From Candidatus Uhrbacteria bacterium GW2011_GWE2_46_68 (GTDB taxonomy: Bacteria; Patescibacteriota; Patescibacteriia; UBA9934; GWF2-40-263): a DNA stretch of 64,000 bases. The notes below the pieces were generated by a model. The model worked only from the letters and a program-made list of their open reading frames with translations. It was not told where the DNA came from and searched no databases. The DNA lies in assembly GCA_001002765.1 (NCBI GenBank), contig LCMS01000004.1:68775-132774 (forward strand), in the 5' to 3' direction. This document shows, piece by piece, positions 2,465-46,382 of the stretch; positions within the stretch are counted from its first letter, which is position 1, and the number at the start of each line of letters is the position of its first letter. The position numbers and the translations under genes were made by a program.

Positions 2465-3628
2465 TTGGGGAGAAGTATGTCGCCGTATTCTTTTTCTACC
2501 ATTCGAGCCGTTTTTATTTTGATTGGTTCTATCGTGGGGGCCGGTGTTTTTGGGGTTCCTTATGCTTTGGCGCAAAGCGGACTTTCTTTAGGCCTTCTTC
2601 TTTTGTTTGTTATGGGTGTTCTCATGACTGTATTGCTTCTCATGAACAGTGAAGTGATTCTTCAGACCCCCGGTCGTCATCGTATCGTCGGTTATTCCAA
2701 GATTTATCTCAAAGGTCGTTGGTGGATATTGGCGTTTTGTGGATTGGTTGCCACTGCGTGGGGGGCGATGTTGGCTTATTTGCTGGTGGGGGGGGATTTT
2801 TTGTCTTCTCTTTTTTCTTTGGGTGGATGGCAAGTTTCTCCTTTTTGGTGCGCATGGATTCTTGCGATTTGCGCAGGGTACGCCATTTTTCGGGGTCTTC
2901 GTTTTGCTTCCAAAGCGGAAGTGGTGGTCATCGGACTTATTCTTTTCCTTTTCCTTTTCGTCGTACTCGCTTCCGCTCCTTTCGTTCAAGCCCCTCATCT
3001 TTTTACCACCCATTGGTCTCAAGTTTTTTTCCCTTACGGTGTATTGCTTTTTGCTCTTTCCGGAAGCGGAGCTATTCCGGAGATCAAAGATGTATTGGGG
3101 AAAAAAGCCAAAAGTCTCATGGGTTTTGTGATTCTCAGCGGGATGGGAACCATCATTCTTTTATATGCGCTTTTCAGTTTTGCGGTTGTTGGGGTGACAG
3201 GATCTTTGACCACACCCATTGCTTTTGATGGGCTTATTCCACTATTGGGTAGTGCATTTCATTTTCTCGTGTCCTTGATAGGTTCTTTGATCACCTTGTC
3301 TATTTTTATGATGATCGGCGTAGAGATTAAACATTTGTTCCGATACGATTTTTCCATGCCCAATGGTTGGTCATGGGCACTGGCGCTCTTCCCTCCTTTT
3401 TTGTTGTATCTGGCCGGACTGCGCGAGTTTATTGCCATCATTGGATTTGTCGGAGCGGTTTTTGGTGGCATCCTTGGAATCATGAGTGTGGGGATTTATG
3501 AACGGATGCGACAAAAATTAAAAAAAGAACATCATCAGTGTTTTTGTGTTCCCAAGTGGGTGAGTGTGTTATTGATCCTCGTATTTTTATCGGGGATGGT
3601 GATGGAAATTACAAATCTTGTGCGATAA
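2465..3628 (+). CDS. amino acid permease (Trp/Tyr permease-like, ~11 TM)
   Basis: Polytopic membrane protein; N-terminal motif IGSIVGAGVFGVPYALAQSG resembles the aromatic/hydroxy amino acid permease family. Confidence 0.45.
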   Translation: MGRSMSPYSFSTIRAVFILIGSIVGAGVFGVPYALAQSGLSLGLLLLFVMGVLMTVLLLMNSEVILQTPGRHRIVGYSKIYLKGRWWILAFCGLVATAWGAMLAYLLVGGDFLSSLFSLGGWQVSPFWCAWILAICAGYAIFRGLRFASKAEVVVIGLILFLFLFVVLASAPFVQAPHLFTTHWSQVFFPYGVLLFALSGSGAIPEIKDVLGKKAKSLMGFVILSGMGTIILLYALFSFAVVGVTGSLTTPIAFDGLIPLLGSAFHFLVSLIGSLITLSIFMMIGVEIKHLFRYDFSMPNGWSWALALFPPFLLYLAGLREFIAIIGFVGAVFGGILGIMSVGIYERMRQKLKKEHHQCFCVPKWVSVLLILVFLSGMVMEITNLVR

Positions 3629-13958: not shown

Positions 13959-15047
13959 ATGGAATCTCAAGCACAAGACTCTGTTCGCCGTCTCATTGTC
14001 CTCTCCGGCATTCGTCCCACAGGTCCTTTGCATCTCGGGAATCACCTGGGTGCGGTCAGGGATTGGGTGGATCTCACCAATCGCGGAGAGTATGATTGCT
14101 ACTTCTTTCTTGCCAATCTGCATATGCTCACCACACGTTCTGCCGCCTTGCATACCGAAGGAAAGAAGAGCGGTGTGGATCCCAAGGAGCTCTATGATGA
14201 TCAGGTCGGATTGGTTCTTGACCTCATGGCTGCCGGGATTGATCCCAACAAGGCGCTCATCTATGCGCAAAGCACGATTCCGGAGCTGACCGAACTCATG
14301 TGGCTTCTGGCTACGTTTACGCCTGTTTCCAGACTCGAGGGCATGCATCACTTCAAGGAAAAGAAAGGCAAGCTCGAAGAAGAAGGTGTCGGTGCCAATG
14401 CAGCTCTTTTGACCTATCCGGTTCTCATGGCCGCGGATATCCTGGGTGTGCAAGCAGACATCATTCCCGTGGGGGAAGATCAAAATGCACATGTTGAGTA
14501 TGCGCGTGACATGGCCCGCGCGTTCAACCGCGAGTATGGCGATCTTTTTCCTGTGCCAGATGTGTGGCAGACAAAGGCTCTGCGTGTCCCTTCGATCGAC
14601 TGCTCAGGAAAGATGGGGAAGAGTCATCCCGAAGGATCAGTGTTCTACACGGATTCCGAAAAGGTGATTCGTCAGAAGTTCAGTAGGGCCGTGAAGGCTA
14701 CAGCGAATCCTCCGCGCACACAAAGCGATTGGAGGAATGATCCAGGAGATCCAGCCACTTGCAATGTCTTTTCTTTTTTTGACCTCGTAGGGTCATCTGA
14801 AGACAAGTCGTGGGCAGAGGCCGGATGTCGTGGTGCCACTATTTCCTGTGGAGAGTGCAAGGCACGTGTGGCTGTCTTGGTCAACGAGATCATGGCTCCA
14901 ATTCGCGAACGTCGATTGTCCCTCGAGACCGATATCGGCCGCGCACAAGCGGTTGAGATCTTGCACGAGGGTGGCAAGAAGGCGCGCGGTCGTGTCCAAG
15001 AGATCGTGACCCGTGCCAAGGAAATGGTGGGGATCCCTGCGTTCTAG
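13959..15047 (+). CDS. trpS: tryptophan--tRNA ligase
   Basis: Class I aaRS: LSGIRPTGPLHLGNHLGA (HIGH-type) and SGKMGKS (KMSKS); length and motif spacing typical of TrpRS. Confidence 0.8.
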   Translation: MESQAQDSVRRLIVLSGIRPTGPLHLGNHLGAVRDWVDLTNRGEYDCYFFLANLHMLTTRSAALHTEGKKSGVDPKELYDDQVGLVLDLMAAGIDPNKALIYAQSTIPELTELMWLLATFTPVSRLEGMHHFKEKKGKLEEEGVGANAALLTYPVLMAADILGVQADIIPVGEDQNAHVEYARDMARAFNREYGDLFPVPDVWQTKALRVPSIDCSGKMGKSHPEGSVFYTDSEKVIRQKFSRAVKATANPPRTQSDWRNDPGDPATCNVFSFFDLVGSSEDKSWAEAGCRGATISCGECKARVAVLVNEIMAPIRERRLSLETDIGRAQAVEILHEGGKKARGRVQEIVTRAKEMVGIPAF

Positions 15048-15068
15048 CTCGCTTTTGCGAGCTTTTTT
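15046..15068 (+). terminator. rho-independent terminator after trpS
   Basis: AGCTCGC-tttt-GCGAGCT hairpin followed by a T-run. Confidence 0.6.
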
Positions 15069-15199: not shown

Positions 15200-16606
15200 A
15201 TGTCCGAAGCTCAAGGTGATGCGTGGCGTTGGCCCCTTGAAGGTTCTTGTGACCAAGCGCGCATCGCGCGCATCGAACACATCACTTCCCCCTATGAGAG
15301 CAGTCCTCCGCCCATCTGCTACCCAGGCACCCCGCTTGATCGCGAGATGATCGCGATGGTTCCCGAACTCATGCGAAAGCAGTTGAATGGCATCGGGTTT
15401 CACACTCCCAATGGCATCGGGGAAGGCGGGTTTGATTCGACTCAGAAGATGGAAAGCGCCGCCGTTCACATGGTCGCCGGCATGCTTGGGGGCACACCCC
15501 AAACCGTGGATGGCTACTTCTGCGGCGGCGGAACTGAGGCAAATTTGGAAGGGCTGTATATCGGCCGTCAATGGCTTCGTTGCTTCGCTGATCCACAAAA
15601 AAAGGGAATCGCCGTTCTCTGCACCCCTCTTGCACACTATTCCATCTTTTTTAAGGGGACCAATATCCTGGGACTGACCAATCAGTTCCGATGGACCGAG
15701 TGTCCCAAGTGTCATCGAGCCCACAAATTGCCCAAAAACGAAAACACCGAGCATCTGCGTTTGGTGGGGGTAGATATCAATGGCAAGATGCATTTGCCAT
15801 CTTTGGAACAGATTTTTCTCAAGGCCTACGAGGAAGGGTATCGTCAGTTTCTTCTGGTAGCGACAGCGGGTACCTGCCTCATGGGTTCGATTGACCCCAT
15901 TTCCGAGATCGGCCAGTGGATGAAACGCACGAAGCGTGAATATCACGTAGAATTCTATTTTCATGTGGACGCCTCATTTGGCGGTTTTACCATTCCTTTT
16001 GCAAGTGAAGGTAAAGAACATATCGGATTTGATGTTCCAGAAGTCATGTCTGTAACCGTGGACGCGGACAAGATGGGCCATCTTCCATACCCGGCTGGTG
16101 TTTTCCTGTGCCGTAAGGGGTTGCAGGAGCATGTCGGACTGGAAGTCGCCTATATCCGCGGGCATGGAGATTACACCATTTCTGGTTCACGCAGTGCGAT
16201 TGCTCCTGTTCTCGCGTGGGACTATTACCAACGTTTGGGTGTGGATGGTCAGACACGGTATGTGAATGCGTGTTTGGAAGCTCGTGACCATCTGCTCCGG
16301 AAAATTTTGGAACGATTTGAGAGAAACAATCATGTGTATCCGCTTTCATGTTCTCCTTTCGTGAACTTCCTTCCTTTGGTCATCGACCTTGTGGACGGAA
16401 GTGTGCCCGAAGATCAGATTGAGCATGGGCCACTGGCTCCCTATCATCTGCGTAGTGATGGAATTCCCACCGAACGGATGGATCCACTAAGCTGTCCCAT
16501 GATTGCCTACAAGTTGTGCATCATGCCGCACACTTTCGGCTTTCTTGATCGTTTCGTGGATGACCTCGAGACGGTTGTCCGCGCGGCCGGAAAATTCGGC
16601 TCCTAA
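15200..16606 (+). CDS. PLP-dependent amino acid decarboxylase (group II; MfnA/GadB/aromatic decarboxylase-like)
   Basis: GYFCGGGTEANLEGL is a group II decarboxylase signature. Candidate PLP lysine in TVDADKMGHLPYPAGV. Strong AAGGAAGGAG RBS. Confidence 0.7.
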   Translation: MSEAQGDAWRWPLEGSCDQARIARIEHITSPYESSPPPICYPGTPLDREMIAMVPELMRKQLNGIGFHTPNGIGEGGFDSTQKMESAAVHMVAGMLGGTPQTVDGYFCGGGTEANLEGLYIGRQWLRCFADPQKKGIAVLCTPLAHYSIFFKGTNILGLTNQFRWTECPKCHRAHKLPKNENTEHLRLVGVDINGKMHLPSLEQIFLKAYEEGYRQFLLVATAGTCLMGSIDPISEIGQWMKRTKREYHVEFYFHVDASFGGFTIPFASEGKEHIGFDVPEVMSVTVDADKMGHLPYPAGVFLCRKGLQEHVGLEVAYIRGHGDYTISGSRSAIAPVLAWDYYQRLGVDGQTRYVNACLEARDHLLRKILERFERNNHVYPLSCSPFVNFLPLVIDLVDGSVPEDQIEHGPLAPYHLRSDGIPTERMDPLSCPMIAYKLCIMPHTFGFLDRFVDDLETVVRAAGKFGS

Positions 16607-16610
16607 CGAA

Positions 16611-16633
16611 CCTGCCCCACAACGGCAGGTTTT
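16611..16633 (+). terminator. rho-independent terminator after decarboxylase
   Basis: CCTGCC-ccacaa-CGGCAGG followed by TTTT. Confidence 0.6.
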
Positions 16634-16653
16634 CTGTTTATCAACACCCCCGG

Positions 16654-16682
16654 TTGACCGCAAAAAAATATCTCGATAGAGT
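16654..16682 (+). promoter_or_regulatory. sigma70-type promoter (TTGACC-17 nt-TAGAGT) driving the T-box leader
   Basis: Near-consensus -35 and -10 with 17-nt spacer immediately upstream of the leader. Confidence 0.55.
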
Positions 16683-16689
16683 AAAGGCA

Positions 16690-16975
16690 CAACATCGTTG
16701 ATCCAGGAAGAAGTACCTTTGGCAAAACCGGTAGAAGCGAGCAGGGGATCGTGAAAGCCCTGTACGGCACCGAAGCGAAATTGGGCCTGGTGAGATGCTT
16801 GCTGCACTACGTGGCAAGCCGGAGAGCCTCCGTCATCATGGGCAAACGCATATCCTTTGGGAGTGCGCACAAGCGCCTATCTTTGAAGATAGGAAGAGAG
16901 GTGGTACCGCGAGCATGAGTCCTCGTCCTCTCAAGTCTGTTTTGTATACAGACTTGTGAAGACGAGGCCTTTTTG
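16690..16975 (+). promoter_or_regulatory. T-box riboswitch leader, probable Trp (UGG) specifier
   Basis: T-box core AGAGGUGGUACCGCGAG at 16897-16913 (consensus AGGGUGGNACCGCG). Stem I elements GAUCCAGGAAGAAGUAC, an AGCGA bulge and distal CGUGAAAGC (compare B. subtilis glyQS). Specifier-loop 3' side AAU-UGG-G closed by a CCAGG/CCUGG helix. Terminator CCTCGTC...GACGAGG+TTTTT at 16921-16975, which can alternate with an antiterminator involving the T-box. Confidence 0.6.
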
Positions 16976-16983
16976 TTAGGGTC

Positions 16984-18402
16984 TTGAAGCCGTTCTTTCC
17001 ATCTACACAGGAGTTTCACACCATGGGGCGTCCACTCACGCAGGTTCATTTGGGCGAAGGGTATTCGGGGAAGATTCGTATGCGCGAGGCGCTGTACACC
17101 GAACCCATTTTGACCGATGCTCATCGGCGATTTTTCGATGAAGGGCGAGCCTATACTTATCGTGGTCTTACGGCAGCTTCTCTGCAGAGATCCCTCAAGG
17201 TCAAAGAAGCGTTCATTCTTATGTGTTATGCCCTTCGAGCAACCAATGGTCGTTTGGCAGATGGTCTTCTTTCTGATCTGGAGTCTTTCGGAGCAGAGGG
17301 TGATCGTATGGCAGCCAGAGAATTTCTCTCCGGCTATGCCGTGAAGGAAGCATGGGCCGGGATTACCCCCAAAGAAGTGGCAGGCATGGTGACAGCCACG
17401 ATGCTTGATATCATGCGGTTTCCTGAATATGGCAAGCGCGTGATTGAAACGTGCGGAATGGGAGGTGATCGAGGAGTTATTGTTGATGGGGAAGGCAAGG
17501 CTCGCAAGACCATCAATGGTTCCACTCTTTCCGCTCTTGTTCTGGCAAGCCTTGGAGTGGTGACAGCCAAACACGGATCTTATGGAAACACTTCGCCTGT
17601 AGGGTCTACCAATGCGATTGAAGATTTGGGAGTGGTCGTAGATATTCCAGATGTGCTTATTCAGCAACGATTGACAGAGGAGGGATTTCATTTTACGGAT
17701 GCGCATGCATGGAAGACGGTTCATGATCTCTCTCATCTGCAGCCGCGTCGCGAGACGATCAACCACGTAGTGGGTCCTATGACTCCGCCGATCTCTCCAA
17801 GCACACGTTTGGACAAGATTTTGGGAGTGAATGACAAGTTGCCTCCGTGGATTGTGGCTGAAGCCTACGTCATTCTTGCAAATATCGGTGTCTTCAATGT
17901 TGGAAATGTTGCCGTGGTCGCTGGACTCATTGATCGTCCTCATGAGGAAGGGATCATCGAATCTCGCGAATGGTTGCGTGACAACATCCGCCTGGATGAA
18001 TTGTCGCCCGTCGCTTCAGCAGTGTCATTTGTCCACGGGAGCCGTTTTCTCGGAACCCACTTGCTTATCCCCGGTGATTTTGGTCTTGAATTTTGGCATC
18101 CCCATGCCCCCTATATTCCCAATGAGAGAGAGGCGATCCGTGAAGCAAATGAGCAAACGCTTCGGGGGGAAATGGATAATCGACAACTGGTAGAACTCCT
18201 GTCTATGAATGCTGCCCTGGGATTGTATCTCGTACAATACATGGACGATGATACGACGCTCGAGGATCAGGGACCTGATCGTGATGCGCTTAAGGATTGT
18301 TATCAACGCTGTCTCGATCAAGTGGCAAGCGGAAGGGTATTTACTTACCTGGAGGCTTATGCCAGACGCACGCGAGATTTCGCAAGGGGCGTGTCCATGT
18401 GA
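16984..18402 (+). CDS. anthranilate phosphoribosyltransferase family protein (TrpD/glycosyltransferase family 3) with N-terminal extension
   Basis: TCGMGGDRG...INGSTLSALVLASLGVVTAKHGSYGNTSPVGSTNAIEDLGV matches the TrpD motifs GTGGD / KHGNR..SS.GSAD.LE.LG. Confidence 0.7.
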   Translation: MKPFFPSTQEFHTMGRPLTQVHLGEGYSGKIRMREALYTEPILTDAHRRFFDEGRAYTYRGLTAASLQRSLKVKEAFILMCYALRATNGRLADGLLSDLESFGAEGDRMAAREFLSGYAVKEAWAGITPKEVAGMVTATMLDIMRFPEYGKRVIETCGMGGDRGVIVDGEGKARKTINGSTLSALVLASLGVVTAKHGSYGNTSPVGSTNAIEDLGVVVDIPDVLIQQRLTEEGFHFTDAHAWKTVHDLSHLQPRRETINHVVGPMTPPISPSTRLDKILGVNDKLPPWIVAEAYVILANIGVFNVGNVAVVAGLIDRPHEEGIIESREWLRDNIRLDELSPVASAVSFVHGSRFLGTHLLIPGDFGLEFWHPHAPYIPNEREAIREANEQTLRGEMDNRQLVELLSMNAALGLYLVQYMDDDTTLEDQGPDRDALKDCYQRCLDQVASGRVFTYLEAYARRTRDFARGVSM

Positions 18403-18436
18403 CGCCCTTTTTTCATAAAAACAAAAAATTTATTGT

Positions 18437-19261
18437 ATGGTATTTCATGCTCCCACTTTTTCTGTCATAGGCATGATTCATTTTTCTCCTTTGGAAGGAG
18501 CACAGGGGTATACTGACCGCGATAATGTGTTTAAAAGAGCGACTCAAGATTTGAACGCTCTTTTACAAGGAGGAGTTGACGCGGTTATGTTTGAGAATAA
18601 TTTTGATACTCCTAAATTTGCACAGCTGCCCGCATCGAACGCTCTTCATTTCGAAGAGCTGGTGGCAGCTTTGGCACCACAGACAACCGTTCCTTGGGGA
18701 CTTTCTCCTTTATGGAATGATTATCGTTTGGGATTTCGTTTGTGTAAAAAATATGGTGGGCAGATGGTACGTGTTCCTGTGTTCGTGGATTCTGTGGAAA
18801 CCGTGTATGGAGTATTTGAAGCAGATCCGCAGTCTGTTCTCAAAGCTAGAGAAGAAGAAAATGCAAAAGAGATTCAATTATGGGCAGACGTGCAAGTAAA
18901 ACATGCGAAAATGCTTCATCCGCGTCCGTTTATTGAATCAGTGACAGATGCTATGACCCAAGGAGCCGATGGAGTGATTGTGACGGGAAATTGGACAGGC
19001 GATCCTCCCTGTATTGAACAATGCAAGGAAGCGTACGAAACAGTTCAAGGACGTGTCGCTATTTTGACAGGAAGTGGAATGACGCCGGAAAACATTTTTT
19101 CTTTTCGTCCATATTTGAACGGATGTATTGTTGGAACAGCATTTAAAGAAGATACTTTCATTACCGATCATCAAGGTCCGAATATTGTAGGTCCAGAAGT
19201 GCGGTATGATGAGCGAAAGATCCAGAAGTTTGTGGAGGCTGCACACAAAAAATCCCCCTAG
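18437..19261 (+). CDS. BtpA/SgcQ family TIM-barrel protein
   Basis: IGMIHFSPLEGAQGY...GVDAVMFENNFDTP matches the BtpA family N-terminal signature (MIHL.PLPGSP ... EN..D.P). Confidence 0.65.
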   Translation: MVFHAPTFSVIGMIHFSPLEGAQGYTDRDNVFKRATQDLNALLQGGVDAVMFENNFDTPKFAQLPASNALHFEELVAALAPQTTVPWGLSPLWNDYRLGFRLCKKYGGQMVRVPVFVDSVETVYGVFEADPQSVLKAREEENAKEIQLWADVQVKHAKMLHPRPFIESVTDAMTQGADGVIVTGNWTGDPPCIEQCKEAYETVQGRVAILTGSGMTPENIFSFRPYLNGCIVGTAFKEDTFITDHQGPNIVGPEVRYDERKIQKFVEAAHKKSP

Positions 19262-20232
19262 AGTAAGGGGGGAGTCGGGAGTCGTCGTTTGACTCCAGCA
19301 AAGAGCGTGACGATGATGGCGCCGACTACGGTCAGAACAAGACCAATGTAGTGTCTTGATACAAGATGTTGGTGTGACATCGTAAAGAAGGAAAGGGGAA
19401 TCATTCCTATGCCTAAAGTGAAAAATGGTCCCAGACAATTGATACTTTGTGTGATAGGAATGGAGAGCGAATCTTCTGCCTTGTTAAAAAGGATATTTGC
19501 AATAGCCGTTGGCACGATTCCAAGGTATATCACAGCGATCCATTCCCTTGTGGTGAGCCATGGAGAAACACGATGCATTGATATATCGATAAGCACCCAA
19601 CACAGTGAGAAGATAACCGCGGCAGTGAAGGTACTGCGAACAGCATTTGCCGGATCGACATGAAACGTATTGCGATAACGTTTACGCACCGTTGCATCTA
19701 TAGAACTAAGAACGGTTGCACAAAGGCTAAACATTGTCACGGCATCCAGAGAATTTCCTTTCCATTCCCGCAACAAGTCAAGACGATAAAGGATGAGGCC
19801 AAACAAAGCGAGTGTCGTTCCTATCCAATAGGCTGACCATCTTTGGCAGGAATCTCCAGCAATGAAATATCCCACTATTGTTGTGAGGGGAGCACGGAGA
19901 ATCATGATAGCGATAACAGTAAGAGCTACTCCTGTCTGTTGTTGCTTGAGTGCGGTGAGCGTACAGGAGAATGAACAGCAATAGAGTAGAATGTCGGTTA
20001 GAAGCCACCTATAGCCACCTTGGTGCAGAGACTCTGTCCATTTCTGTTTCGGGTGGAAGAATGCCCAGCTGGCAAGGCAAGCAAAACAGGAAAACCAGAA
20101 GAAGCTCACACTTGCAGGAAGTCGCCGTGTTTCATTGGCAAAGACAAGATAGGCGCTGCTGAAGAATGCGACAGCCAGAAGAGCCAATCCAACACCACGT
20201 AAACGGTTGGAAACAAAAAGATTCGTTTTCAT
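19258..20232 (-). CDS. EamA/DMT-family membrane transporter (10 TM)
   Basis: Polytopic membrane protein with two repeated 5-TM halves. Start set at internal MKTNLF (ATG rc 20230-20232). Confidence 0.45.
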   Translation of the reverse strand: MKTNLFVSNRLRGVGLALLAVAFFSSAYLVFANETRRLPASVSFFWFSCFACLASWAFFHPKQKWTESLHQGGYRWLLTDILLYCCSFSCTLTALKQQQTGVALTVIAIMILRAPLTTIVGYFIAGDSCQRWSAYWIGTTLALFGLILYRLDLLREWKGNSLDAVTMFSLCATVLSSIDATVRKRYRNTFHVDPANAVRSTFTAAVIFSLCWVLIDISMHRVSPWLTTREWIAVIYLGIVPTAIANILFNKAEDSLSIPITQSINCLGPFFTLGIGMIPLSFFTMSHQHLVSRHYIGLVLTVVGAIIVTLFAGVKRRLPTPPLL

Positions 20233-20335
20233 GAAGTCACCTTTTTTTGGAAAGAACACCAAGGTCTTTGTAAATGTTAAGTGATCATTTGTCAATGAGG
20301 TTATAAAAATCGTAAACTATTCTTGGAGGAGTTCT

Positions 20336-21328
20336 ATGTCTTCATTTTCTCTCCCTTCCCATATCTGTCATCTCAAAGGTGTAAATCAAGATGGTCCTAC
20401 GGTGGTCATTTTGGGTGGCACCCATGGTGATGAACGAACGGGAGTTGTGCTTGTCAAACGTCTTTTAAGCGATCTTGATCTTTCCACCGAAATACCAAGT
20501 GGCGAACATCTTCGTGCAGATATCATCGGAAATCTCTATCTGGGTTTTGGAAATCCAAAAGCCATGGACATTGAGAATCGTATGGCTTCGGATCGACGAG
20601 ATTTGAATCGCTCTTTTCAAACAACCGATCTTTTCGATTCGTCCCAAATTTGGGAAGATCTTGAGCGTGCGCGTGAACTGGTTCCACTTTTCGTGCATAC
20701 GGATTATCTTTTCGATATTCACGCTACCAATTTTGATTCCCCACCTTTTGTGTGTTTTGGACATGATGATCCAGAACATCGCGAACTCTATCAGCATATT
20801 CCTGTACCCTTTGTGTTGACCGATCCAGATACACGACTATCCGCAGACATGGGACTCACGGAACTTGCGACCACAGATTATTTTGTAGATACCTTTGGAG
20901 GAAGCGCTTGGGGCGAGAAAAAATTCGGACGCAAGCGTGGAGTGGGGCTGTGTTATGAAACAGGACAGCAACAAGATTTGAGCCGTGTGGAAGCCGCACT
21001 TCGAACCATGCTTCAGCTTATGTTGCAAGTAGGAGCGATCACTTCGGAATTTTTGGAAGCGATTCATGAGACTCCTTCACATAATCCACCTGTGATGCCC
21101 AAAGTCCATGCTCTTACTACGGGAGAAATTACCAGAGATTGTCCATTTAGTTATGACCAGGGAATGAATCAAGGATGGGTGCCGATTACCAAAGGGACAC
21201 GGGTAGGAGTATATCAGGATGGACAAGAGGTTTTTGCAAAAGAAGATGGTATGCTCATCTTGCAGCGCGCGCCGGAGAAAATGATTCCCGGTCATCGCAT
21301 GTTTTTTGTGGCCAAAAGAATCGGTTAA
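20336..21328 (+). CDS. succinylglutamate desuccinylase/aspartoacylase family zinc hydrolase
   Basis: VVILGGTHGDERTGV matches the AstE/AspA zinc-binding motif (GGxHGNE). Confidence 0.65.
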   Translation: MSSFSLPSHICHLKGVNQDGPTVVILGGTHGDERTGVVLVKRLLSDLDLSTEIPSGEHLRADIIGNLYLGFGNPKAMDIENRMASDRRDLNRSFQTTDLFDSSQIWEDLERARELVPLFVHTDYLFDIHATNFDSPPFVCFGHDDPEHRELYQHIPVPFVLTDPDTRLSADMGLTELATTDYFVDTFGGSAWGEKKFGRKRGVGLCYETGQQQDLSRVEAALRTMLQLMLQVGAITSEFLEAIHETPSHNPPVMPKVHALTTGEITRDCPFSYDQGMNQGWVPITKGTRVGVYQDGQEVFAKEDGMLILQRAPEKMIPGHRMFFVAKRIG

Positions 21329-21610: not shown

Positions 21611-21687
21611 TGGCGGGCGTGACAGGAATCGAACCCGCAGCCTTCGGATTTGGAATCCGCTGCTCCACCTAATTGAGCTACACGCCC
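21611..21687 (-). tRNA. tRNA-Trp (CCA)
   Basis: Reverse complement folds as GGGCGTG-TA-GCTC-aattaggtg-GAGC-a-GCGGA-TTCCAAA-TCCGA-aggct-GCGGG-TTCGATT-CCTGT-CACGCCC-G-CCA. Anticodon CCA, discriminator G, encoded CCA end. Confidence 0.9.
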
Positions 21688-45597: not shown

Positions 45598-45739
45598 AGG
45601 GGATATTGTTAAGGACGGGTTGATTGTAACATGACCATTGGTGCCTTGCACGGCATAGATTTCTTTGTTATGCTTTTGCCACGTTCTTTGGAAAAAAGAA
45701 TTATTCCGGGGTAGCTCAGTGGTTAGAGCGGCTGGCTGT

Positions 45740-46318
45740 GGCACACGCTTATAGGTATTATAGAATTCTATGGAATCCAACAAGCGATCCTATGCCCGAC
45801 GCGCGGAATATCTCAAAAAAGCAGTTGTACGCAGAAGGCGTGAAGTTCGAGAGAAGGCGATTGCTCACTTAGGTGGTCAATGTCAGATATGTGGTTATAA
45901 ACGTTGTGAGCAGGCTCTCGATTTTCATCACCGCAACCATAAGGAAAAAACATTCGGCATTTCCCAAAAAGGATATACAAGATCTTGGGAAAGAGTAAAA
46001 GAAGAACTAAAAGGTTGTGTCTTTCTTTGTGCAAATTGTCATCGAGAAATTCACGCAGGGTATACGCAGCTTCTGACAGAGATGTCAGAATGATCATAGG
46101 GTGAACTTCTGGAAGCCTACATCCGAAAGGATATGGTAATCAGAAGCCAAGCCCCACGAAGTTTAAGACAAGTGGGGAAGGTTCAGAGACTATCCGTTAT
46201 GACCCTCAAAAGAGAGGGGAGGAGTACCTCGCCAAAAGGCGGGGGAAGCGCCCTACATCCTCGCAATATGCAGGATGATGATATAGTCCACCCCTTTGGG
46301 AAACCAAAGGATGATGTG
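45740..46318 (+). ncRNA. group I self-splicing intron in tRNA-Asn anticodon loop (between nt 36 and 37)
   Basis: Catalytic-core element R (GTTCAGAGACTATCC, 46181-46195) and element S (GATATAGTCC, 46280-46289) form P7. 5' splice after U, terminal omega-G at 46318. Contains an HNH ORF. Confidence 0.7.
45770..46093 (+). CDS. HNH homing endonuclease (intron-encoded)
   Basis: CQICGYKRCEQALDFHHRNHKEK...CVFLCANCHREIHAG carries the HNH/zinc-finger motif. Located inside the intron 5' region. Confidence 0.75.
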   Translation: MESNKRSYARRAEYLKKAVVRRRREVREKAIAHLGGQCQICGYKRCEQALDFHHRNHKEKTFGISQKGYTRSWERVKEELKGCVFLCANCHREIHAGYTQLLTEMSE

Positions 46319-46382
46319 TAACCAGTAGGTCGTGGGTTCAAGTCCCACCCCCGGAGCCACAAAGATCCCTAGCAATTTGCTA

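What the first reader, a model, noticed from the sequence alone, without database searches (positions are those of the whole stretch)
16611..18402. Trp-specifier T-box leader controlling a TrpD-family gene, within a GC-elevated Trp-themed block (trpS, PLP decarboxylase, trpD-like)
A near-consensus promoter (TTGACC-17-TAGAGT) drives a leader carrying a T-box core AGAGGUGGUACCGCG, Stem I hallmarks (AGCGA bulge, GUGAAAG distal loop), a specifier loop reading AAU-UGG-G, and a terminator that can alternate with an antiterminator. The regulated gene is a TrpD/GT3-family protein with a ~90-aa N-terminal extension. The block ~13.9-18.4 kb is visibly more GC-rich than its surroundings, so long spurious antisense ORFs appear only there. 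It holds trpS and a group II PLP decarboxylase that could act on an aromatic amino acid. A lone trpD-like gene under tRNA-Trp control, without other trp genes nearby, is unusual. The T-box discriminator-pairing base is U (UGGU), pairing by wobble with the G73 of the tRNA-Trp encoded at 21611-21687.
Basis: partly seen in the sequence, partly recalled or inferred. Interest (0 to 1): 0.7.

Follow-up and report, generated by a model that had tools for sequence, protein, structure and literature searches.

The report
Tryptophan T-box controlling non-canonical TrpD-like enzyme
A tRNA-sensing RNA switch specific for tryptophan turns on a previously uncharacterised relative of the tryptophan-pathway enzyme TrpD in an ultra-small (CPR/Patescibacteria) bacterium, and the same switch-plus-gene module, usually with a BtpA-family partner and next to the tryptophanyl-tRNA synthetase gene, recurs across that whole radiation, pointing to an unknown route for securing tryptophan.

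Summary
Window 16689-16933 matches Rfam T-box RF00230 (90.0 bits, E 2e-20; 3 bits under the gathering score, so default annotation misses it). It has a promoter, a full Stem I, a UGG specifier, a UGGU bulge and a strong terminator overlapping the antiterminator. The tRNA-Trp(CCA) 4.7 kb away has G73. The 13.9-18.4 kb block is the most GC-rich stretch of the window.

The regulated gene (17023-18402, 459 aa) is not a canonical anthranilate phosphoribosyltransferase. It has the TrpD fold and keeps the PRPP/Mg motifs, but the residues that hold anthranilate are replaced. It belongs to a small, well-separated family found almost only in Patescibacteria.

In 63 genomes this gene is followed by a BtpA-family TIM-barrel gene in about 46 and lies within 6 kb of trpS in about 40. 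A T-box with a UGG specifier precedes it in 40. Some lineages fuse it to a HAD phosphatase and add a nucleoside hydrolase and a deacylase. No canonical trp genes occur nearby.

Best reading: a Trp-starvation-induced, PRPP-dependent module of unknown chemistry that supports Trp-tRNA charging. I found no publication describing it.

The parts
13959..15047 (+). trpS, tryptophan--tRNA ligase; followed by its own terminator-like hairpin (15046-15063); no T-box upstream
   Evidence: TIGR00233 248.8 bits (cut-off 176.75), PF00579; hairpin; no further T-box in window
15200..16606 (+). group II PLP-dependent decarboxylase-like gene (substrate unknown)
   Evidence: PF00282 62.9 bits; MfnA/HisDC models far below cut-offs; homolog present in 9 of the related loci
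16608..16640 (+). intrinsic terminator-like hairpin closing the decarboxylase gene
   Evidence: 9-bp stem, -13.8 kcal/mol, z -4.5, then UUUUCUGUUU
16654..16682 (+). sigma-70-type promoter TTGACC-17-TAGAGT of the leader
   Evidence: the Rfam T-box match begins 7 nt downstream at 16689
16689..16975 (+). T-box leader (RF00230 match 16689-16933, plus terminator)
   Evidence: 90.0 bits, E 2.2e-20, full model
16694..16800 (+). Stem I: K-turn base (UGA/GAG), specifier loop with AGUA/GAA S-turn, AGCGA bulge (16736-16740), distal loop GAUCGUGAAAG
   Evidence: Rfam alignment; RNAalifold on six orthologous Stem I: 22 pairs, 15 with compensatory changes
16782..16785 (+). specifier UGG (16782-16784) plus the conserved purine G16785, directly before the closing helix
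   Evidence: UGG+purine at the same place in all orthologous leaders inspected
16896..16932 (+). antiterminator with 7-nt bulge UGGUACC; UGGU (16902-16905) pairs with G73-CCA of tRNA-Trp (U-G wobble)
   Evidence: fold -13.3 kcal/mol; covariation in 21 orthologous antiterminators: 90% paired, 7 of 11 pairs with compensatory changes, 0/500 shuffles reach it
16917..16975 (+). intrinsic terminator, mutually exclusive with the antiterminator, followed by UUUUU
   Evidence: -30.0 kcal/mol, z -6.0, 0/200 shuffles
17010..17013 (+). ribosome-binding site GGAG, 9 nt before the ATG
   Evidence: sequence
17023..18402 (+). TrpD-like (TrpDL) gene, 459 aa: PRT type III fold, PRPP site kept, anthranilate site remodelled
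   Evidence: PF00591, TIGR01245 93.8 < 199 bits; AF2 pLDDT 93.9, all top PDB matches AnPRT, TM 0.85; alignments A1, A4
18384..18416 (+). terminator-like hairpin overlapping the TrpDL stop codon, then U-run
   Evidence: -18.2 kcal/mol for the stretch, z -3.0
18437..19261 (+). BtpA/SgcQ-family TIM-barrel gene, the conserved partner of TrpDL
   Evidence: PF03437 153.8 bits; downstream of TrpDL on the same strand in 46 of 62 loci; AF2 pLDDT 93.3, phosphate-binding barrel neighbours
19258..20295 (-). EamA-family transporter gene
   Evidence: PF00892; also in L001
20336..21328 (+). AstE/AspA-family (zinc deacylase-like) gene; homologs are inside the T-box operon in other lineages
   Evidence: PF24827; 15 loci; in L014 it lies between the T-box and TrpDL
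21611..21687 (-). tRNA-Trp (anticodon CCA, G73, encoded CCA), the presumed ligand

Best explanation
The leader is a class I (transcription-attenuating) T-box riboswitch specific for tRNA-Trp. Transcription starts near 16689. When tRNA-Trp is uncharged, its CCA anticodon pairs with the UGG specifier in Stem I. Its free G73-CCA end pairs with UGGU in the bulge, which stabilises the antiterminator, so RNA polymerase reads into the gene at 17023. When tRNA-Trp is charged, the -30 kcal/mol terminator forms instead. These steps are inferred from sequence, structure prediction and covariation, not shown by experiment.

The induced protein (TrpDL) descends from anthranilate phosphoribosyltransferase. 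It keeps the whole PRPP/Mg2+ binding apparatus but has a rebuilt, more polar acceptor pocket. It most likely transfers phosphoribose from PRPP to an acceptor other than anthranilate, or runs that reaction in reverse.

It works with a BtpA-family phosphate-binding TIM barrel. In some lineages it works with a HAD phosphatase, a nucleoside hydrolase and an N-acyl-amino-acid-type deacylase.

The module is switched on by uncharged tRNA-Trp in lineages from Uhrbacteria to WWE3 and Microgenomates, and it stays next to trpS. Its most likely role is therefore to raise the supply of tryptophan for TrpRS, by salvage or a non-canonical synthesis, in organisms that lack the classical trp pathway. The chemistry is not established.
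For: T-box:
- RF00230 at 90 bits, E 2e-20.
- Promoter, antiterminator and terminator.
- Stem I covariation and antiterminator covariation.
- A model of the antiterminator (R1) finds an element just upstream of TrpDL on the same strand in 40 of 63 genome loci; 19 of these were not in the seed. Elsewhere in 785 kb it finds only three valS leaders with E below 0.001 (plus a few marginal hits at E 0.07-0.9).
- Every bulge reads GGUGG(C/U)A, never A or G, as expected for G73.
- UGG plus a purine closes the Stem I loop in all leaders inspected, although Stem I itself varies greatly.
- The cognate tRNA lies in the window.

Protein:
- Fold matches are all AnPRT.
- Shared invariant residues are GxGGD, NxST, KHG, GS, DE and N396. 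These map to the PRPP/Mg residues listed in PMC9835598.
- KHGN becomes KHGS, and the Arg that holds the anthranilate carboxylate is not conserved.
- The family is small and separated from TrpD: 51 representatives at E<=1e-30, with canonical TrpD at about 1e-11.

Module:
- BtpA lies downstream in 46 of 62 loci, often overlapping by 4 nt. trpS is in 39-42 loci.
- TrpDL-HAD and BtpA-HAD fusions exist.
- Tight operons AstE-TrpDL/HAD-IUNH-(x)-trpS occur.
- No trp-pathway Pfam families occur in the window. No TrpB-like ORF occurs in 68 loci.
Against: - No experiment supports any step.
- The Rfam score is 3 bits under the curated threshold.
- 23 of 63 loci show no T-box upstream of TrpDL. Some are contig ends or archaeal-labelled bins.
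- In the window, a terminator-like hairpin separates TrpDL from BtpA, so co-regulation of the pair here is uncertain.
- The neighbour set in some lineages (nucleotidase-like HAD, nucleoside hydrolase, PfkB kinase) looks like nucleoside/ribose metabolism rather than amino-acid metabolism. With a phosphoribosyltransferase it would form a futile cycle unless the acceptor is changed while ribosylated.
- The absence of TrpB is known only for about 13-kb neighbourhoods and one 64-kb window, not for whole genomes.
- The BtpA fold comparison does not discriminate among phosphate-binding barrels.
Confidence: 0.75

Rival explanations
1. The gene is an ordinary, merely divergent anthranilate phosphoribosyltransferase. 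It would be a remnant or salvage step of the classical pathway: anthranilate taken from a host is converted to PRA, and the remaining trp genes lie elsewhere in the genome.
For: The closest sequences, HMMs and structures are all TrpD. The PRPP site is intact. T-box control of trp biosynthetic genes is the classical situation (PMC7778990). Source databases call some members 'anthranilate phosphoribosyltransferase'.
Against: - It scores less than half of the NCBIfam trpD cut-off.
- The Asn of KHGN is invariantly Ser, and the carboxylate-binding Arg is not conserved.
- It has about 110 extra residues, in three insertions plus N-terminal and C-terminal extensions.
- It is never next to trpE/G/C/F/A/B in 63 loci, whereas canonical trpD usually is (PMC5445326).
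- It has a constant BtpA partner instead.
Confidence: 0.12
2. The module is a nucleotide or ribose catabolic/salvage unit: a TrpD-fold enzyme acting as a nucleotide phosphorylase or base phosphoribosyltransferase, with a nucleotidase, a nucleoside hydrolase, a PfkB kinase and a BtpA barrel. Uncharged tRNA-Trp would serve only as a general starvation signal, a stringent-response-like use of a T-box.
For: Recurrent neighbours are a HAD domain most similar to pyrimidine 5'-nucleotidases, RihC-like nucleoside hydrolase and a short PfkB kinase. A DeoC and a PRPP-synthetase-like gene lie near the window end. CPR bacteria are known to rely on nucleoside salvage (general knowledge).
Against: - The specifier is UGG in every lineage, and the cluster stays beside trpS in about two thirds of loci. 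That is hard to explain for a general signal.
- The fold and sequence are nearer to TrpD than to nucleoside phosphorylases. There is no PYNP_C domain and no hit to thymidine/AMP phosphorylase models.
- Other neighbours are amino-acid-type enzymes: deacylases, a PLP enzyme, a racemase and a chorismate-mutase-like domain.
Confidence: 0.1
3. The module protects TrpRS from an inhibitor. An indole-type antimetabolite that blocks charging raises uncharged tRNA-Trp. That induces TrpDL, which phosphoribosylates the compound. The product is then dephosphorylated and exported by the EamA/SWEET-type transporters nearby.
For: A T-box responds to inhibition of charging as well as to starvation (established logic of the mechanism). 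Transporter genes (EamA here, MtN3/SWEET in L068) adjoin the cluster. The phosphatase is fused to the transferase.
Against: No precedent among T-box regulons. Conservation across a whole radiation of minimal genomes suits core metabolism better than a specialised resistance. The nucleoside hydrolase in the same operons would undo the modification.
Confidence: 0.03

Closest known systems
Class I (transcriptional) T-box leaders with Trp specifier, as upstream of trpS, trp operons and Trp transporters in Firmicutes (Rfam RF00230; TBDB)
   Same: The full architecture is present in the window: K-turn, specifier loop with S-turn, AG bulge and distal loop, Stem II/IIA-B, Stem III, a 7-nt UGGN bulge, and competing terminator and antiterminator. 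The specifier is UGG and the discriminator match fits G73.
   Different: The host is a Patescibacteria (CPR) genome. The target is neither an aaRS, a classical trp gene nor a transporter. The score falls just under Rfam's gathering threshold. The discriminator pair here is a U-G wobble; most relatives have C.
T-boxes with truncated Stem I (class II, actinobacterial ileS type)
   Same: Many orthologous CPR leaders have no distal Stem I platform. Stem I is a 5-7 bp hairpin whose loop (AGAAUGGG, GGAAUGGA, AGGGUUGGAA) carries the specifier.
   Different: The CPR leaders inspected that have terminators appear to be transcriptional, not translational. The window's own leader has a full-length Stem I. 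I did not test whether Stem II/IIA-B compensates as it does in the Mycobacterium ileS leader.
Anthranilate phosphoribosyltransferase TrpD (PRT type III)
   Same: Same two-domain fold (TM 0.85 to solved AnPRTs). Same GxGGD, NxST, KHG, GS and DE motifs that bind PRPP and two Mg2+.
   Different: 459 aa against 330-380. KHGN becomes KHGS. The helix alpha8 Arg is not conserved, and a His/Asp/Lys-rich motif DAHxxKTxHDLSH...ETxNH replaces the anthranilate channel. Insertions lie at 150-161 and 296-320. It is below the NCBIfam cut-off and has no trp operon context.
TrpD2 / YbiB DNA-binding proteins
   Same: A TrpD-fold paralogue outside the trp operon.
   Different: TrpD2 lacks the PRPP motif (PMC9835598), whereas TrpDL keeps it invariantly. 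The window protein gives no NCBIfam YbiB hit, and a fused family member gives only E 0.003. The neighbourhood is different: helicase genes for YbiB (PMC5445326).
Nucleoside phosphorylase family II, including archaeal AMP phosphorylase with an N-terminal extension
   Same: Related fold, N-terminal extra domain, ribose-phosphate chemistry, nucleoside-metabolism neighbours in some lineages.
   Different: No C-terminal alpha/beta (PYNP_C) domain. No sequence or structure match ranks above AnPRT.
BtpA/SgcQ family (PF03437)
   Same: The partner gene is a clear member (153.8 bits).
   Different: The family has no established enzymatic function. Its link to a TrpD-like gene, trpS and a Trp T-box is not in any paper I could find.

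Membership tests
T-box leader (RF00230) | Score at or above Rfam's gathering threshold | tested here: not met
   90.0 bits against 93; E 2.2e-20; full-length match. A near miss of a curated cut-off, not a lack of similarity.
T-box leader (RF00230) | Stem I with K-turn, specifier loop (S-turn, codon, 3' purine), AG bulge and distal loop | tested here: met
   Rfam alignment; RNAalifold on six orthologues gives 22 pairs, 15 compensatory.
T-box leader (RF00230) | Conserved T-box sequence forming an antiterminator with a 7-nt bulge UGGN | tested here: met
   GGUGGUACCGCG at 16900-16911. In 21 orthologues, 90% of cells are paired, 7 of 11 pairs are compensatory, and 0/500 shuffles reach this.
T-box leader (RF00230) | Mutually exclusive terminator (or sequestrator) downstream | tested here: met
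   -30 kcal/mol hairpin sharing CCUCGUCCUCUC with the antiterminator, followed by a U-run.
T-box leader (RF00230) | Cognate tRNA whose anticodon matches the specifier and whose discriminator matches UGGN | tested here: met
   tRNA-Trp CCA with G73 in the window. N is C or U in all 41 orthologous bulges.
T-box leader (RF00230) | tRNA-dependent read-through responding to aminoacylation | not testable with these tools
   Needs in vitro transcription or reporter assays.
Anthranilate phosphoribosyltransferase (TrpD, EC 2.4.2.18) | NCBIfam TIGR01245 at or above cut-off; length 330-380 aa | tested here: not met
   93.8 against 199 bits; 459 aa (PMC9835598).
Anthranilate phosphoribosyltransferase (TrpD, EC 2.4.2.18) | PRT type III fold | tested here: met
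   AF2 model pLDDT 93.9; the top 50 PDB matches are all AnPRT, TM(target) 0.74-0.86.
Anthranilate phosphoribosyltransferase (TrpD, EC 2.4.2.18) | PRPP/Mg site: GTGGD loop, N/S/T of helix alpha5, Lys of beta2, Asp-Glu of beta5-beta6 | tested here: met
   G145-x-G147-G148-D149, N165/S167/T168, K183 and D325/E326 are invariant in 31 family members and shared with TrpD.
Anthranilate phosphoribosyltransferase (TrpD, EC 2.4.2.18) | Anthranilate site 1: conserved Arg on helix alpha8 and Asn of KHGN | tested here: not met
   Asn is replaced by invariant Ser186. The Arg position aligns to H238 or to non-conserved R/M/G residues, and the segment is 4-5 residues shorter. This rests on alignment, not on a complex structure.
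Anthranilate phosphoribosyltransferase (TrpD, EC 2.4.2.18) | Genomic association with other trp genes | tested here: not met
   None in the 64-kb window or in 63 loci of about 13 kb. One IGPS-like fragment occurs in L068 only.
Anthranilate phosphoribosyltransferase (TrpD, EC 2.4.2.18) | Catalysis of PRA formation from anthranilate and PRPP | not testable with these tools
   Enzyme assay or trpD complementation needed.
TrpD2 (YbiB) | Loss of the PRPP-binding motif; nucleic-acid binding | tested here: not met
   The PRPP motif is invariantly kept. The definition is from PMC9835598.
Nucleoside phosphorylase II / AMP phosphorylase | C-terminal alpha/beta domain (PYNP_C) and closest similarity to DeoA/Pdp/AMPpase | tested here: not met
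   Only PF00591 is found. No phosphorylase model or structure appears among the hits.
BtpA/SgcQ family (partner gene 18437-19261) | PF03437 above gathering score; (beta/alpha)8 barrel | tested here: met

The most novel reading that the evidence does not exclude
TrpDL with BtpA (and, by lineage, a HAD phosphatase, a nucleoside hydrolase and an AstE/M20 deacylase) is an undescribed PRPP-dependent pathway. Through it, CPR/Patescibacteria, which are regarded as tryptophan auxotrophs, would make or recover tryptophan from a precursor other than anthranilate. The conserved Trp T-box is the cell's own annotation of that function. The CPR T-boxes with a hairpin-only Stem I are a further unrecognised structural class.
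Probability: 0.4. Interest if true: 0.85.

Novelty: new variant of a known kind. Interest (0 to 1): 0.72.

Why it matters
CPR bacteria make up a large share of bacterial diversity. They have minimal genomes, and how they obtain amino acids is largely inferred from missing genes. A riboswitch that reads tRNA-Trp charging is direct regulatory evidence that a particular gene set serves tryptophan supply.

That turns two families of unknown or mis-assigned function into a testable biochemical problem. One is a TrpD paralogue that pipelines label 'anthranilate phosphoribosyltransferase'. The other is BtpA, known only as a photosystem I stability factor. Both have defined candidate partners.

The finding also shows that T-boxes are widespread in Patescibacteria but escape standard Rfam annotation: 90 bits here and about 45 bits for the minimal-Stem-I forms, against a threshold of 93. 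Regulon reconstructions for these organisms are therefore incomplete.

If the gene were taken at face value as trpD, metabolic models would wrongly credit these organisms with a step of the classical pathway.

Tried and rejected
- A genome scan with the single protein found nothing. It worked only with the family alignment.
- An automated test for 'codon + purine + closing helix after a UGA' did not discriminate UGG from other triplets: 16 of 41 leaders for both UGG and AGU. I dropped it in favour of alignment and direct inspection.
- BtpA and the recurrent 346-aa neighbour have no sequence relatives in the PDB. The 346-aa protein has no Pfam or NCBIfam hit.
- TrpB search by tblastn was negative.
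- Literature searches combined T-box with Patescibacteria, CPR or Parcubacteria; BtpA with AnPRT; and AnPRT with Patescibacteria. All returned nothing. The library holds open-access papers only.
- Recent horizontal transfer as the cause of the GC shift: not supported by synteny with L001, but not excluded either.
- Considered and rejected: translational control (a strong terminator with a U-run is present), a TrpD2-type DNA-binding protein, and a nucleoside phosphorylase.
Full report
**What is in the sequence**

The stretch 16611-18402 contains the following features.
- A terminator-like hairpin closes the upstream gene (16608-16632; -13.8 kcal/mol, z -4.5).
- A promoter TTGACC-17-TAGAGT lies at 16654-16682.
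- A 287-nt leader follows.
- A 459-codon ORF runs from an ATG at 17023, preceded by GGAG.

A default Rfam scan of the window reports only a group I intron and a tRNA. With permissive filters the leader matches T-box RF00230 over the whole model at 90.0 bits. The E-value is 2.2e-20 locally and 2.8e-18 for the window. That is three bits under the curated gathering score of 93, and it is the only T-box in the 64 kb.

**Anatomy of the leader**

The Rfam alignment places these elements:
- the K-turn (UGA...GAG)
- the S-turn halves (AGUA and GAA)
- the AG bulge (AGCGA, 16736-16740)
- the distal loop (GAUCGUGAAAG)
- Stems II, IIA/B and III
- the T-box sequence GGUGGUACCGCG

Alone, the antiterminator (16896-16932) folds at -13.3 kcal/mol with the 7-nt bulge UGGUACC. 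The downstream hairpin (16917-16969) plus UUUUU folds at -30.0 kcal/mol (z -6.0; none of 200 shuffles does as well). It uses the strand CCUCGUCCUCUC that the antiterminator needs. This is the standard transcription-attenuation arrangement.

The specifier is UGG (16782-16784) followed by G. It lies directly before the helix CCAGG/CCUGG that closes the specifier loop.

A tRNA-Trp gene with anticodon CCA lies at 21611-21687 on the other strand.

**Is the specifier really UGG?**

Within one sequence the register is ambiguous: Rfam's own alignment pairs CCAG/CUGG and leaves GC unpaired. I therefore used orthologous leaders.

Six leaders of the same architecture give an RNAalifold Stem I of 22 pairs, 15 of them with compensatory changes. 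In this structure GAA-NN-UGG-R abuts the closing helix. The two bases before UGG vary (AU, CA, A), which excludes UUG or AUU as the conserved triplet.

In more distant relatives Stem I changes completely. Some are shortened stems. Some are bare hairpins of 5-7 bp with loops AGAAUGGG, GGAAUGGA or AGGGUUGGAA. UGG plus a purine still sits at the 3' end of the loop in every leader I inspected.

Rfam scores one such hairpin-type leader at only 44.7 bits, with 72 Stem I positions replaced by 6 nt.

A crude automated test of the specifier position was not discriminating, and I discarded it.

**How widespread is the element?**

I built a covariance model of the antiterminator from 21 orthologues. It has 11 pairs, with 90% of cells paired and 7 pairs with compensatory changes. 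No shuffle and no slid register comes close.

Searching 785 kb of related loci, the model finds an element on the coding strand just upstream of the homologous gene in 40 of 63 genome loci. Nineteen of these were not in the seed. Elsewhere it finds only three hits with E below 0.001 (plus a few marginal hits at E 0.07-0.9), and these precede a valS gene in Gottesmanbacteria.

All 41 bulges read GGUGG(C/U)A: C in about 32 and U in 9, never a purine. This is what a G73 tRNA requires.

**The regulated protein**

By HMM it contains PF00591. It hits the NCBIfam trpD model at 93.8 bits, under half the cut-off of 199. It gives no hit to thymidine or AMP phosphorylase or to YbiB models.

By sequence, the best solved relatives are AnPRTs at only E 1e-10.

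An AlphaFold model built on 31 family members is confident (pLDDT 93.9). Its 50 best PDB matches are all AnPRTs, with TM(target) about 0.85 and 18-24% identity.

It is nevertheless not a canonical TrpD. A full-library phmmer search finds 51 representatives at E<=1e-30. After a gap come the ordinary 330-350 aa TrpDs, at about 1e-11. Named members are Candidatus Uhrbacteria, Paceibacteria and 'Patescibacteria group'.

I aligned the family against canonical TrpDs. I then compared the result with the residue roles listed in the 2023 AnPRT review (PMC9835598).

Residues that bind PRPP and the two Mg2+ ions are kept invariantly:
- G145xGGD149
- N165/S167/T168
- K183
- G194-S195
- D325-E326

The anthranilate site is not kept.
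- The Asn of KHGN (Mtu N138) is invariantly Ser186.
- The helix alpha8 Arg that holds the carboxylate (Mtu R193) aligns to positions that are His or non-conserved R/M/G.
- The segment is shortened and replaced by the invariant motif DAH228xxK231TxH234DLSH238...E244TxNH248.

The family also carries an N-terminal addition of about 48 residues, inserts of about 28, 10 and 25 residues, and extra C-terminal helices.

From this I infer that it binds PRPP but uses a different, more polar acceptor. This is inference from alignment. I could not inspect model coordinates.

**Genomic context**

Scanning one genome per species with the family alignment returned 63 loci. Nearly all are labelled Patescibacteria lineages: Uhr-, Magasanik-, Azam-, Paceibacteria, WWE3, Gottesman-, Roizman-, Collier- and Blackburnbacteria. 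Some are evidently mislabelled bins, and two are labelled Woesearchaeota.

The window itself is contig DNYB01000010.1 of GCA_003506835.1.

By tblastn and ORF clustering:
- a BtpA/SgcQ-family gene lies downstream on the same strand in 46 of 62 non-redundant loci
- 38 of these are within 112 nt, and many overlap by 4 nt
- BtpA lies elsewhere in the locus in 8 more
- trpS lies within about 6 kb in 39-42 loci

In the window, the BtpA gene is 18437-19261 (PF03437, 153.8 bits). A hairpin with a U-run overlaps the TrpDL stop codon, and no promoter was predicted in the 35-nt gap. Co-transcription here is therefore possible but unproven.

Other recurrent neighbours:
- a short PfkB kinase (15 loci)
- an AstE/AspA-type deacylase (15 loci; in the window at 20336-21328)
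- an unknown 346-aa protein (15 loci)
- a chorismate-mutase-like domain fused to a SAM methyltransferase (10 loci)
- the PLP decarboxylase-like enzyme (9 loci)
- a RihC-like nucleoside hydrolase (9 loci)
- an M20 peptidase (7 loci)
- an Asp/Glu/hydantoin racemase (3 loci)

In seven loci without an adjacent BtpA gene, TrpDL is fused to or followed by a nucleotidase-like HAD phosphatase, and then by the nucleoside hydrolase. One locus has a BtpA-HAD fusion. Another has TrpDL-HAD-BtpA-PfkB.

In L014 the T-box precedes AstE-TrpDL/HAD-hydrolase-x-trpS, with the first three genes overlapping. In L052 TrpDL/HAD-AstE-hydrolase-trpS all overlap.

**Canonical trp genes**

I found none. No trp-pathway Pfam families (IGPS, PRAI, Trp_syntA, PALP-type TrpB, chorismate-binding) appear among the genes called across the window. 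tblastn found no TrpB-like ORF in 68 loci, with the caveat stated above. One 183-aa IGPS-like fragment occurs in L068 only.

The window does encode a Trp/Tyr-permease-family protein at 2465-3628. A PRPP-synthetase-like gene lies just beyond the window's end.

**The BtpA partner**

**Composition**

The 13.9-18.4 kb block has GC 0.518. This is the highest of all 4.5-kb windows (mean 0.451, sd 0.024). The rise is mainly in GC3 of trpS (0.567) and the decarboxylase (0.554), less in TrpDL (0.474). It ends abruptly before BtpA (GC3 0.335).

A relative with 69% identical TrpDL has the same order trpS-decarboxylase-TrpDL-BtpA-EamA and a milder version of the same pattern. The arrangement is therefore old in this lineage. 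The cause of the GC shift is unexplained.

**How it most likely works**

Inferred from sequence, predicted structure and covariation (no step shown by experiment):
- a Trp-specific T-box of the transcriptional kind
- induction of TrpDL when tRNA-Trp is uncharged

Inferred from conservation of the PRPP site, the fusions and the operons:
- TrpDL makes or breaks a phosphoribosyl linkage on a non-anthranilate acceptor
- BtpA, or HAD plus nucleoside hydrolase, processes the ribose-phosphate part
- deacylases act at the amino-acid end

Inferred from the T-box logic and the trpS linkage: the output raises Trp available to TrpRS.

I cannot name the substrate. A plain transferase-phosphatase-hydrolase series would be futile unless the acceptor is altered while ribosylated. 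This is the main weakness of any specific scheme.

**Comparison with what is known**

The riboswitch is a member of the T-box class in every structural respect tested. It falls marginally short of Rfam's score threshold.

The protein works like, and descends from, AnPRT but fails the membership tests that concern the acceptor, the length, the curated score and the context. It is not TrpD2, because the PRPP motif is kept, and it is not a nucleoside phosphorylase.

The 2023 AnPRT review lists only three homologue groups: NP-II, TrpD2 and a plant alpha/beta-only group. The TBDB paper does not mention CPR. Six targeted full-text searches found nothing on T-boxes in Patescibacteria or on a TrpD-BtpA link. 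I therefore rate it a new variant of known kinds: a known riboswitch class in an unreported host group and target, and an uncharacterised subfamily of a known fold. Subscription-only literature was not searched.

Noticed in passing
window 45705-46349 (+): A tRNA gene split by a group I intron of about 585 nt (RF00028, 87.6 bits at 45999-46310). The intron carries a 107-aa ORF (45770-46093) with CxxC...CxxCH, HNH-like motifs. The 5' half is TCCGGGGTAGCTCAGTGGTTAGAGCGGCTGGCTGT; the 3' half ends ...GGGTTCAAGTCCCACCCCCGGAGCCA. ARAGORN does not find it. Splice sites are undetermined; the anticodon could be GUU (Asn, fits G73), UGU or GUG.
   Followed up: partly
L026, L030, L034, L036, L039, L041, L043, L045-L048, L051, L053-L055, L059, L063 (about 150-250 nt upstream of the TrpD-like gene): T-box leaders whose Stem I is only a 5-7 bp hairpin with an 8-10 nt loop carrying the UGG specifier (AGAAUGGG, GGAAUGGA, AGGGUUGGAA). 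They have no K-turn-to-platform structure. Rfam scores one at 44.7 bits against a threshold of 93.
   Followed up: partly
L014:5779-7908, L019:4509-6653, L052:5836-7953; L011:7870-9318: Domain fusions. The TrpD-like protein is fused to a C-terminal nucleotidase-like HAD phosphatase (about 710 aa). In one locus BtpA is fused to a HAD domain (482 aa). These link the three activities.
   Followed up: yes
L045:107-2392 (-), also L043, L046, L047: A second T-box in Gottesmanbacteria loci lies upstream of valS (TIGR00422, 771 bits). T-box control of aminoacyl-tRNA synthetases therefore also exists in CPR.
   Followed up: partly
window 2465-3628 (+): Gene of the Trp/Tyr permease family (PF03222, 52.9 bits), 13 kb upstream of the cluster. 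No T-box precedes it.
   Followed up: no
window 18402/18437 boundary: GC3 falls from 0.47-0.57 (trpS, decarboxylase, TrpD-like) to 0.335 in the BtpA gene, although the two genes are a conserved pair. trpS, the decarboxylase gene and the TrpD-like gene each end in their own terminator-like hairpin.
   Followed up: partly
L011 and L028 (records titled Candidatus Woesearchaeota archaeon): The same cluster (trpS, PLP enzyme, AstE-like, TrpD-like, HAD, BtpA-HAD or nucleoside hydrolase) occurs in bins labelled as DPANN archaea, without a detectable T-box. This is either mis-binning or transfer of the module between CPR and DPANN.
   Followed up: no
L068:15732-16283 (+): A 183-aa ORF matching the middle of the IGPS (TrpC) profile (PF00218, 44.3 bits), 4.4 kb downstream of the cluster. 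It is unique to this locus.
   Followed up: partly
L064:12486-13637 (-), L068:8108-9328 (+), L050:9728-10870 (-) and 7 more loci: A chorismate-mutase-type II domain fused to a class I SAM methyltransferase sits between trpS and the TrpD-like gene. This is the position the PLP decarboxylase-like gene occupies in the window.
   Followed up: no
L019:3787-4512 (+): An Asp/Glu/hydantoin racemase family gene overlaps the start of the TrpD-like/HAD gene by 4 nt. Together with the AstE-like and M20 deacylases, it hints at processing of D- or N-substituted amino acids.
   Followed up: no
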